Shown here in pieces: positions 7,706 through 8,365 of a stretch of 10,139 bases of DNA. Source of the stretch: a virus; the UHGV virus genome UHGV-0107762; one strand, written 5' to 3'. Made by a program: the position numbers and the translations under genes. Numbering within the stretch: position 1 is the stretch's first letter; each line of letters starts with the position of its first letter. The notes under the pieces were generated by a model, which was not told the DNA's origin, made no database searches, and worked only from the letters and a program-made list of their open reading frames with translations.

Positions 7706-8014
7706 ATGGATTCTTATGGGATTTTATCTGCTCTGGCAGAACGAACGATTACAGCGGAAGAAGCAAAAACAATGACACTTGCAGCCAGAAGTTCTTCGGC
7801 TCAGGTAAATGAAGCATCACTTGCTCTGTTACTGATTGATAATACTCTGGATGCGATCAAAGCAGCTGCCAGTGAAGGGAAAGGATACACTTTACTTCCT
7901 TCTTATGAGATTTCTGTAAAAGCCATTGATTTAGCAGAAGAATTTTTAAGGAAACAATGCGGCTATGTTATTGATAACCAGAATGGCGTAAGGACGGTCT
8001 ATTGGTTTATATGA
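7706..8014 (+). CDS. Hypothetical protein (102 aa), cargo gene between gIV and dif
   Basis: ORF with a G-rich SD-like sequence 7 nt upstream of ATG 7706. Predicted mostly helical, Ala-rich N-terminal half. No homolog recognised. Confidence 0.45.
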   Translation: MDSYGILSALAERTITAEEAKTMTLAARSSSAQVNEASLALLLIDNTLDAIKAAASEGKGYTLLPSYEISVKAIDLAEEFLRKQCGYVIDNQNGVRTVYWFI

Positions 8015-8131
8015 TAACCCCGGACAATGACAAAACTTGCTTTTGTTAGTGTCAGGGGTTGGCCAAGCCGAACAATTCTGTTTTTTTAGCGTTATTGCTG
8101 ATTCGGCGCGGCAGCATTACGAGGAGATAAA

Positions 8132-8365
8132 ATGCAATTTTTCACATCCAGCGATACTGTAATGTTATGTGCGAAGACCTGCGATCGCTGTGGTCGCCAT
8201 GCGAAGACGGTGGTAGATGACATTGAGTTCAATGAGTTTCTGTCTGTTAATCACTTAGCTGGATACGGTTCAATTTTTGGTGACAGTAATCGCTTAAAAC
8301 TGGATTTATGCCAACATTGCCTGAAAGACGTCCTGGGCCAGTGGATTACGGTCTGTGACCAATGA
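8132..8365 (+). CDS. Hypothetical small 4-Cys (CxxC...CxxC) putative zinc-binding protein, cargo gene next to dif
   Basis: 77-aa ORF with a strong SD (GAGGAG, 5-nt spacer) before ATG 8132. Motifs CDRC (residues 17-20) and CQHC (60-63). Ends 38 bp before dif. Confidence 0.55.
   Translation: MQFFTSSDTVMLCAKTCDRCGRHAKTVVDDIEFNEFLSVNHLAGYGSIFGDSNRLKLDLCQHCLKDVLGQWITVCDQ

What the first reader, a model, noticed from the sequence alone, without database searches (positions are those of the whole stretch)
7706..8365. Two unknown cargo ORFs between gIV and dif, including a small 4-Cys protein
In Ff phages gIV is followed only by the non-coding intergenic region. Here there are two ORFs with plausible ribosome-binding sites (102 aa, and 77 aa with CDRC...CQHC) between the secretin gene and the attachment site. 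This is the position where dif-integrating inoviruses carry accessory genes (CTXphi carries ctxAB next to its att site). They could be lysogenic-conversion, regulatory or superinfection-exclusion genes.
Basis: partly seen in the sequence, partly recalled or inferred. Interest (0 to 1): 0.65.

Follow-up and report, generated by a model that had tools for sequence, protein, structure and literature searches.

The report
Two accessory genes of CUS-1 prophage
The two small genes between the secretin gene and dif are real, conserved genes of an already described filamentous prophage (CUS-1/YpfPhi, the published 'no predictable function' ORFs); one belongs to a large unnamed family of small zinc-binding proteins, neither looks like a toxin, and their function is still not established.

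Summary
ORF102 (7706-8014) and ORF77 (8132-8365) lie between gIV (ends 7636) and an exact E. coli dif (8404-8431). Both are under purifying selection (dN/dS 0.05-0.14; shifted frames about 1). They are not new. The window is a CUS-1/YpfPhi-type inovirus prophage, and the literature already lists these as two attR-adjacent ORFs (YPO2280a/YPO2281 homologues) with no predictable function, at the ctxAB position.

What I add:
- The two genes are independent modules, not a pair.
- ORF102 occurs only in CUS-1-lineage phages and has no detectable relatives.
- ORF77 is a stand-alone member of an unnamed family of more than 1,200 clusters. It is a small acidic Cys4 domain (AlphaFold pLDDT 91, no solved structural relative). 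In cellular genomes the domain is repeatedly fused to antitoxin modules.
- ORF77 travels as a roughly 350-bp cassette with a conserved, covarying double hairpin.
- Another strong hairpin caps gIV, so the interval also holds Ff-intergenic-like structured DNA.

Neither protein has a signal peptide, a TM segment, or toxin or defence homology. Best guess, at low confidence: cytoplasmic protein-binding accessory factors. Novelty: already known genes. Interest is modest.

The parts
6371..7636 (+). gIV secretin (context; left boundary of the interval)
   Evidence: RefSeq 'secretin N-terminal domain-containing protein' at the equivalent coordinates. The Salmonella homologue carries the Secretin, Secretin_N and GspD_N0 Pfam domains.
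7626..7685 (+). Hairpin I1, a near-perfect stem of about 25 bp that overlaps the gIV stop codon. It is found only in ORF102-bearing lineages.
   Evidence: 20-nt arms, 90% complementary. ssDNA fold -24.5 kcal/mol, z = -10.5. Conserved in Salmonella L003 with a compensatory A:T to C:G change; absent from L124 and L125. No U-tract follows, so it is not a canonical terminator.
7706..8014 (+). ORF102: an acidic cytoplasmic protein (pI 4.7). Residues 1-35 are variable and residues 36-102 are conserved. Restricted to the CUS-1 lineage.
   Evidence: phrog_4115; only 10 clusters, all enterobacterial; dN/dS 0.14; N-part 0.28, C-part 0.077.
7808..7816 (.). Interval that holds the right-hand breakpoints of two independent deletion derivatives. 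It also marks the boundary between the variable and conserved parts of ORF102.
   Evidence: L074 joins window 7326 to 7815. L122 joins 1901 to 7808-7816 through the microhomology ATGAAGCA. Divergence boundary. Only two events; unexplained.
8016..8060 (+). Hairpin A of a conserved double hairpin (left edge of the ORF77 cassette)
   Evidence: (compensatory pairs 10-40, 13-37, 18-32). Homology with the L006 mini-element starts exactly here.
8062..8112 (+). Hairpin B of the double hairpin
   Evidence: compensatory pairs 49-101, 57-93, 63-86; z = -3.9 for A and B together. No Rfam family.
8121..8126 (+). Shine-Dalgarno GAGGAG of ORF77
   Evidence: Read. Purine-rich equivalents are conserved in L006, L012, L124 and L125.
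8132..8365 (+). ORF77: a small acidic Cys4 (C17, C20, C60, C63) predicted zinc-binding protein. It is a stand-alone member of a large unnamed family.
   Evidence: 1,238 clusters; pLDDT 91; no structural relative; antitoxin fusions.
8377..8403 (+). Conserved att-proximal phage sequence directly left of the XerC arm
   Evidence: Conserved between the window and Salmonella L003, and present at the tandem junction.
8404..8431 (+). dif / attR. The XerC arm plus TGTA (8404-8418) is phage-contributed; the remainder is host.
   Evidence: Exact dif. The tandem-prophage junction reads GGTGCGCATAA-TGTAcgactcg-TTATGTTGAAA. Homology with other CUS-1 prophages ends at 8431-8434.
1..36 (+). Left-end sequence of the prophage: the 3' half of the bidirectional terminator hairpin that follows attP in the circular or tandem form (context)
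   Evidence: Matches L001 2178-2213, just after the tandem junction. Also present in the L006 mini-element.

Best explanation
The gIV-dif interval of this CUS-1/YpfPhi-type prophage contains two independent single-gene accessory modules interleaved with conserved DNA hairpins.

ORF77 is a cytoplasmic, acidic protein that is probably stabilised by zinc. It is the stand-alone form of a widespread, uncharacterised Cys4 domain. In enterobacterial inoviruses it moves as a roughly 350-bp cassette (double hairpin, Shine-Dalgarno site, ORF) placed after gIV and next to attP. Elsewhere the same domain forms the N-terminal head of antitoxin-like proteins of the MbcA/ParS/Xre, TacA and DUF4926 types. The most likely mode of action is protein binding, meaning it modulates a host or mobile-element protein, plausibly one in toxin-antitoxin or abortive-infection type circuitry. 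Catalysis, secretion or DNA binding are less likely.

ORF102 is a lineage-restricted cytoplasmic protein. It appears to have been inserted, together with hairpin I1, between gIV and the double hairpin. It has a fast-evolving N-terminal part and a conserved C-terminal domain. It most likely acts as a phage-specific regulatory or exclusion factor.

Both genes are probably transcribed as the tail of the rightward gII-gIV operon.

Shown here: coding status, independence of the two genes, family size, fold confidence, fusions, hairpin covariation.
Inferred: zinc binding, protein-binding mode, co-transcription, and any phenotype.
For: Identity and context.
Coding selection.
Independence: ORF102 occurs without ORF77 in Salmonella L003-L005. 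ORF77 occurs without ORF102, directly after gIV, in L124, L125, L012 and Klebsiella L016/L079-L081.
ORF77 family: 1,238 clusters at E<=1e-3 and 611 at E<=1e-10. C20, D51, C60 and C63 are invariant; C17, D18, E32, E35, G44, S47, G50, D58 and Q61 are at least 90% conserved. AlphaFold pLDDT 91, pTM 0.71.
Acidic character: median pI 4.96, 83% of members below pI 6.
Fusions: Xre_MbcA_ParS_C in 8, DUF4926 in 2 and TacA1 in 1 of 52 long members. RefSeq names one such protein an 'MbcA/ParS/Xre antitoxin family protein'.
No fixed neighbour.
Soluble proteins.
Cassette boundaries.
Hairpins.
No promoter-like or terminator-like site between gIV and ORF77.
Both genes are retained in the deletion derivatives L122 and L006.
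Against: There is no experimental or expression evidence. The function is inferred only from domain architecture. The antitoxin fusions account for 11 of 52 long members, and most family members are stand-alone. The fused proteins inspected did not have an obvious toxin gene next to them. ORF102 has no relatives, no model and no domain, so its role is essentially a guess. The tight linkage of ORF77 to the double hairpin could instead mean that it acts on that DNA element.

My confidence in the parts: structural and evolutionary picture about 0.9; 'protein-binding accessory factor' for ORF77 about 0.3; any specific role for ORF102 about 0.15.
Confidence: 0.5

Rival explanations
1. ORF102 and ORF77 form a toxin-antitoxin (addiction) pair that stabilises the otherwise unstable episome or prophage.
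For: They are two small adjacent co-directional genes. ORF77-like domains are fused to antitoxin modules elsewhere. YpfPhi is an unstable episome. Inoviruses are known to carry accessory TA systems such as Pf4 PfiAT (titles and abstracts).
Against: The two genes are inherited separately in at least five lineages. They are separated by 117 nt of structured DNA. ORF102 has no toxin or antitoxin homology. No conserved partner was found for the ORF77 family in about 100 loci. ORF102 is unrelated to any fusion partner.
Confidence: 0.07
2. ORF77 is a DNA-acting factor for the adjacent cis elements. It could be a regulator or accessory protein for Xer integration at attP (by analogy with XafT), or for the double hairpin (complementary-strand origin or packaging signal).
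For: ORF77 always lies between the double hairpin and attP in inoviruses, and moves with the hairpin as one cassette. It is a zinc-finger-type protein. Cassette and att site are retained together in the mini-elements L006 and L122. In antitoxins the N-terminal position is often the DNA-binding domain (general knowledge).
Against: The domain is acidic across the family. The Salmonella relative keeps the hairpins and integrates at dif without ORF77. Distant members sit in tailed-phage contigs and chromosomes with no Xer context. There is no DUF3653/XafT or HTH signature.
Confidence: 0.15
3. They are lysogenic-conversion virulence genes, functionally analogous to ctxAB (effectors acting on the animal host).
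For: They occupy the same genomic position as ctxAB. YpfPhi and CUS-1 modestly increase fitness in animal models.
Against: There is no signal peptide or TM segment (maximum hydropathy 1.21 and 0.66). Both are small acidic proteins. There is no toxin homology. The ORF77 family is spread over environmental bacteria, archaeal MAGs and phages rather than pathogens. The published CUS-1 attenuation maps to puvA, described as a virion protein required for receptor binding.
Confidence: 0.04
4. The ORFs are incidental, and the real function of the interval is purely cis-acting (an Ff-like intergenic region).
For: There are three strong hairpins, two of them with covariation. Spurious ORFs of similar length exist elsewhere in the window.
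Against: Selection is frame-specific and purifying. A large protein family matches ORF77. The fold is confident. The Shine-Dalgarno site is conserved.
Confidence: 0.01

Closest known systems
YPO2280a and YPO2281 of Yersinia pestis YpfPhi, and their homologues in E. coli CUS-1 (Derbise & Carniel 2014, PMC4266046)
   Same: Two ORFs immediately adjacent to attR, after the secretin gene, in a dif-integrated inovirus with the same gene order. They are described as having no predictable function and as occupying the ctxAB position. The window is 100% identical over 832 nt to the UM146 prophage.
   Different: Nothing detectable; these appear to be the same genes. I could not make a direct alignment to a Y. 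pestis or deposited CUS-1 record, because none is in the searchable collections.
ctxAB of CTXphi
   Same: Accessory genes at the end of the phage genome next to the Xer attachment site.
   Different: CtxAB is a secreted AB5 toxin. ORF102 and ORF77 are small acidic cytoplasmic proteins with no signal peptide and no toxin homology.
Zinc-containing antitoxins such as MqsA (recalled from memory, used as a lead)
   Same: A Cys4 zinc module is part of an antitoxin-type protein. ORF77-like domains are fused to MbcA/ParS/Xre, TacA and DUF4926 modules.
Ff (f1/M13) intergenic region: packaging-signal and complementary-strand-origin hairpins after gIV (textbook knowledge)
   Same: Strong hairpins on the + strand directly downstream of gIV. 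They are conserved by compensatory change.
   Different: There is no sequence similarity and no f1 (+) origin core. ORFs are interleaved with the hairpins. Function is untested.
Accessory TA and regulatory modules of Pf inoviruses (PfiAT, KKP; abstracts)
   Same: Inovirus accessory genes outside the core that influence phage production or defence.
   Different: No homology. ORF102 and ORF77 are not a co-inherited pair.

Membership tests
CUS-1 / YpfPhi right-end ORFs (YPO2280a/YPO2281 homologues) | Inovirus with gII-gV-gVII-gVIII-gIII-gVI-gI-gIV order, integrated at chromosomal dif with an intact dif at its 3' end | tested here: met
CUS-1 / YpfPhi right-end ORFs (YPO2280a/YPO2281 homologues) | Two ORFs immediately adjacent to attR, downstream of the secretin gene | tested here: met
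CUS-1 / YpfPhi right-end ORFs (YPO2280a/YPO2281 homologues) | Near-identity to the deposited CUS-1 or Y. pestis CO92 sequence | not testable with these tools
   No such record is in the phage collection and no sequence is printed in the papers. The window is 100% identical to the UM146 prophage.
PHROG families phrog_4115 (ORF102) and phrog_5435 (ORF77) | Full-length profile match | tested here: met
   2e-68 over 1-102/102 and 4.5e-46 over 1-77/96. Both families are of unknown function.
Type II toxin-antitoxin pair | Two genes co-inherited as an operon with short or overlapping spacing | tested here: not met
   Separate inheritance. A 117-nt structured spacer lies between them.
Type II toxin-antitoxin pair | Recognisable toxin or antitoxin domain in the two proteins themselves | tested here: not met
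   No Pfam, NCBIfam or PADLOC hit. Only distant relatives of ORF77 carry antitoxin tails.
Cys4 zinc ribbon / treble-clef-type zinc finger | Two conserved CxxC knuckles | tested here: met
   C20, C60 and C63 are invariant and C17 is at least 90% conserved in 82 sequences. One natural variant has Ser at position 17.
Cys4 zinc ribbon / treble-clef-type zinc finger | Structural superposition on a solved zinc-ribbon or treble-clef domain | tested here: inconclusive
Cys4 zinc ribbon / treble-clef-type zinc finger | Zinc actually bound | not testable with these tools
   Needs metal analysis of purified protein.
CtxAB-like lysogenic-conversion exotoxin | Secretion signal and toxin-domain homology | tested here: not met
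Ff-type intergenic cis elements (packaging signal / complementary-strand origin) | Stable hairpins on the + strand after gIV, conserved by compensatory change | tested here: met
Ff-type intergenic cis elements (packaging signal / complementary-strand origin) | f1-like (+) origin nick-site core; packaging or priming activity | tested here: not met
   No match to GTTCTTTAATAGTGGACTC with up to 3 mismatches. Activity is not testable here.
XafT-type Xer activation factor | DUF3653 HTH domain | tested here: not met
   No Pfam hit for either ORF or across the ORF77 family.

The most novel reading that the evidence does not exclude
The ORF77-type Cys4 domain would be a new, widespread module of phage-host conflict. 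In bacteria it would be the N-terminal sensing or regulatory head of several unrelated antitoxin families. Phages, including dif-integrating inoviruses of E. coli, Salmonella, Klebsiella and Y. pestis, would carry the bare head as a decoy or modulator of toxin-antitoxin or abortive-infection systems. Separately, the 7808-7816 breakpoint cluster could mark the phage's rolling-circle nick site embedded inside ORF102.
Probability: 0.12. Interest if true: 0.65.

Novelty: already known. Interest (0 to 1): 0.33.

Why it matters
YpfPhi and CUS-1 are the filamentous prophages of pandemic-lineage Y. pestis and of the high-virulence E. coli K1 clone. The review on YpfPhi names the function of the ORFs at each end of the prophage as an open question. 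This analysis narrows that question in four ways:
- The two right-end genes are real but unlinked.
- They are cytoplasmic and not toxin-like.
- One belongs to a family of more than 1,200 clusters with a confident, structurally unmatched zinc fold and recurrent fusion to antitoxin modules.
- The interval also carries conserved hairpins that are candidates for the phage's missing origin or packaging elements.

This gives concrete experiments, but it does not reveal a new kind of system.

Tried and rejected
- The deposited-phage collection gave no nucleotide or protein match.
- Pfam, NCBIfam and PADLOC gave nothing significant for either ORF.
- PDB sequence search: ORF102's best hit is an ART toxin chain (6drh_B) at E=0.26, which I rejected as non-significant. 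The ORF77 profile hits only C2H2 knuckles at E>=0.03.
- A GNAT-toxin link was suggested by L041, L006 and a TacA fusion. I rejected it: GNAT-like ORFs occur in only 2 of 108 loci.
- 'Recurrent gII::ORF102 fusions' in the 90% cluster are a clustering artefact. The members are plain gII fragments.
- I first took the L006 copy of ORF77 as plasmid-borne and independent of inoviruses. I retracted this: it lies inside an inovirus-derived mini-element with a CUS-1-type att junction.
- Rosetta-stone test: ORF102 against the fusion partners and neighbours of the ORF77 family gave no hit.
- ORF77 against the other zinc proteins of the attL module (ECs_2282 family, TIGR04402): hhalign probability of 5% or less.
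- No f1 origin core. Rfam gave only sub-threshold miRNA-like hairpin hits.

Full report
WHAT THE WINDOW IS

The window is almost a complete filamentous (inovirus) prophage inserted at the E. coli chromosome-dimer resolution site. It has these features:
- gII (Phage_CRI plus G2P_X_C, E=8.8e-70), then gV, gVII, gVIII, gIII, gVI, gI (Zot) and gIV (secretin), in the Ff order.
- A leftward block of small genes at the left end.
- An exact 28-bp dif at 8404-8431.

Over 832 nt the gIV-dif interval is 100% identical to the prophage in E. coli UM146. Forty-nine of 5,426 complete E. coli genomes hold at least 80% of the 7600-8500 query. About 700 further hits are only to the host flank right of dif. In strain 1368KP the prophage is in tandem, and the copy-to-copy junction reads GGTGCGCATAA-TGTAcgactcg-TTATGTTGAAA. 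This is the 'imperfect dif' between copies described for YpfPhi. The organisation matches CUS-1 of E. coli K1 and YpfPhi of Y. pestis as reviewed in PMC4266046.

OBSERVATION

The CDRC and CQHC motifs and a strong GAGGAG ribosome-binding site for ORF77 are all present.

Length alone proves nothing, because the window has several spurious alternate-frame ORFs of 76-105 aa. The following evidence shows that both are genes:
- Each matches a PHROG family over its full length.
- Each is identical in most CUS-1 copies examined.
- Each is under purifying selection against diverged relatives. ORF77 has dN/dS of 0.05-0.13 in four comparisons with dS of 0.9-2.9. ORF102 has dN/dS of 0.14.
- In shifted frames the ratio rises to 0.76-1.81.

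ALREADY PUBLISHED

[quoted passage not shown] It says their homologues are present in CUS-1, and that CTXphi carries ctxAB at this position. A full-text search found no paper that assigns them a function. So the finding rediscovers a documented open question.

TWO INDEPENDENT MODULES

ORF102 has only about 10 clusters among 5.8 billion proteins, and a profile search adds none. All are in CUS-1-like enterobacterial inoviruses, always directly after gIV.

The Salmonella relative has ORF103 (60% identical), followed by the same hairpins, about 330 nt of other sequence, and dif. It has no ORF77.

Conversely, ORF77 homologues at 57-82% identity follow gIV directly, with no ORF102, in at least four other inovirus backbones: L124, L125, L012 and Klebsiella L016/L079-L081.

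A mosaic boundary sits at the gIV/ORF102 junction. Nucleotide identity between the E. coli and Salmonella phages falls from 93% to 61% there, and dS is 1.78 for ORF102 against 0.38 for gIV.

Within the CUS-1 lineage these two genes are constant, while the attL-side module is swapped. Three different versions were seen. This window's version occurs in only 1 of 5,426 genomes.

ORF77

An exhaustive profile search finds 1,238 representative clusters at E<=1e-3 and 611 at E<=1e-10. They span many bacterial phyla, some archaeal MAGs and viral contigs. No Pfam or NCBIfam model covers the family, and every public source calls it hypothetical.

Conservation across 82 sequences:
- C20, D51, C60 and C63 are invariant.
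- C17, D18, E32, E35, G44, S47, G50, D58 and Q61 are at least 90% conserved.
- The signature is CDRCG ... E..E ... GYGS.FGD ... D.CQ.C.

With this alignment AlphaFold gives pLDDT 91 and pTM 0.71. The model has a CxxC beta-knuckle, a short helix, a beta-hairpin carrying the GYGSxFGD loop, and a helix whose N-terminus carries the second CxxC.

No solved structure resembles it convincingly:
- Foldseek against PDB gives nothing with E<=1e-3.
- BFVD's best match is E=2.9e-3, to other small phage zinc proteins.

The domain is acidic, with median pI 4.96, and soluble.

Among 52 longer members, 11 carry antitoxin modules at the C-terminus: Xre_MbcA_ParS_C in 8 (best 3e-18), DUF4926 in 2 and TacA1 in 1. 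No neighbouring gene recurs. Clustering of 542 neighbours and a Pfam scan of 148 neighbours show only a heterogeneous mix typical of mobile elements and defence islands.

ORF102

It is acidic (pI 4.7) and soluble. Residues 1-35 are fast-evolving (dN/dS 0.28) and residues 36-102 are conserved (dN/dS 0.077). It has no domain, no PDB relative (best E=0.26, not significant), no defence-system hit and no relation to any ORF77 fusion partner.

NON-CODING ANATOMY

Hairpin I1 (7626-7685):
- It overlaps the gIV stop codon.
- It is extremely stable (z = -10.5).
- It occurs only in ORF102-bearing phages.
- It shows a compensatory change in Salmonella.

Double hairpin (8016-8060 and 8062-8112):
- It precedes ORF77 in every lineage that has ORF77.
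- It follows ORF103 in Salmonella, which lacks ORF77.
- Six of 32 pairs show compensatory substitutions in 8 sequences.
- It matches no Rfam family.

Homology between inoviruses and the contig L006 starts exactly at the base of hairpin A and ends at the ORF77 stop. This defines a cassette of about 350 bp.

L006 looked like a plasmid (ParM, ParB, UmuDC). However, its ORF77 copy lies in an inovirus-derived mini-element with a CUS-1-type att junction and left-end sequence. It is therefore not an inovirus-independent occurrence.

Two independent deletion derivatives (L074 and L122) share a right-hand breakpoint within 7808-7816. That interval is also the boundary between the variable and conserved parts of ORF102. 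With only two events this stays unexplained. It could be a hot spot such as a Rep nick site, or it could reflect selection for keeping the C-terminal domain in frame.

MECHANISM

Shown:
- Both ORFs are real genes.
- They are inherited independently.
- Both proteins are predicted to be cytoplasmic and are acidic.
- ORF77 has a confidently predicted Cys4 fold, belongs to a large family and has relatives fused to antitoxin modules.
- The hairpins are conserved.

Inferred:
- ORF77 binds zinc and acts by binding a protein partner, possibly in TA or abortive-infection circuitry (about 0.3).
- ORF102 is a lineage-specific regulatory or exclusion factor (about 0.15).
- Both are transcribed as the distal end of the rightward operon. 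No promoter-like or terminator-like site lies between gIV and ORF77. In the circular or tandem form a bidirectional terminator follows attP.

Rivals:
- A TA pair (0.07), contradicted by the separate inheritance.
- A DNA-acting factor for att or the hairpins (0.15), supported by the linkage but opposed by the acidity and by the Salmonella phage, which lacks ORF77.
- A CtxAB-like virulence effector (0.04).
- Spurious ORFs (0.01).

VERDICT

The genes themselves are already known and annotated as hypothetical. The new information is the family membership and architecture of ORF77, the independence of the two genes, and the structured DNA around them. Interest is modest at 0.33. It would rise if the ORF77 domain proves to be a general module of phage-host conflict.

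Noticed in passing
window 8016-8112: A conserved double hairpin immediately upstream of ORF77. It has 6 of 32 compensatory pairs in 8 sequences and matches no Rfam family. It is also present after ORF103 in the Salmonella phage that lacks ORF77. It is a candidate complementary-strand origin or packaging signal.
   Followed up: yes
window 7626-7685: A very stable hairpin (ssDNA z = -10.5) overlapping the gIV stop codon. It occurs only in ORF102-bearing lineages and shows a compensatory A:T to C:G change in Salmonella. No U-tract follows it.
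   Followed up: partly
window 7808-7816; L074 5684; L122 2936-2944: Two independent deletion derivatives (gIV::ORF102 and gII'::ORF102, both in frame) share a right-hand breakpoint within 8 nt or less. The same interval is the boundary between the variable and conserved parts of ORF102. It may be a recombination or nick hot spot.
   Followed up: partly
window 50-834 (- strand): The attL-side cargo of this copy is a 193-aa TIGR04402 'mobilome CxxCx(11)CxxC' protein (1.1e-41, with a weak SLATT-like N-terminus) plus a 77-aa ORF. This variant occurs in only 1 of 5,426 complete E. coli genomes. Other CUS-1 copies carry ECs_2282-family or DUF6953 plus PD-(D/E)XK genes instead, so this end is a hypervariable slot.
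   Followed up: partly
window 8432-10139: Right of dif lies a 507-aa weak tyrosine-recombinase-like gene (RefSeq: 'site-specific integrase' x2). This segment occurs in 162 E. coli genomes, with 62 of 169 places on plasmids. It may be another mobile element adjacent to dif.
   Followed up: partly
L006 2851-4199: A plasmid-like metagenomic contig (ParM, ParB, UmuDC) carries an inovirus-derived mini-element. It has a CUS-1-type att junction (GGTGCGCgTAA-TGTtatacacg-TTATGTTGAAA), the left-end terminator, two small ORFs, the double hairpin and an ORF77 homologue. It has no core phage genes.
   Followed up: partly
L126 (E. coli EC5502, NZ_CP092647.1): The 7600-8500 query matches 16 places in this chromosome. 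In the 25-kb stretch examined, CUS-1 copies lie in tandem and many genes are annotated as frameshifted. This could be real decay or a long-read assembly error.
   Followed up: no
P0031, P0033, P0060, P0131, P0162, L026 and others (relatives of ORF77): Many betaproteobacterial family members have a short conserved motif, FDPxRHGGEFP, right after the zinc domain. Another subgroup has a DDPFD...HKP...YQxYQ tail. Neither is known to Pfam.
   Followed up: no
L011 (JARKOR010000214.1): A contig binned as 'Candidatus Nanosynbacter' carries ORF102 and ORF77 with protein sequences identical to the window's. This is almost certainly a binning contaminant from an enterobacterium.
   Followed up: no
window 1640-1721: Three copies of GAACTCA lie in the short region between the leftward 60-aa gene and gII. 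They may be operator or Rep-binding repeats (seen by eye).
   Followed up: no
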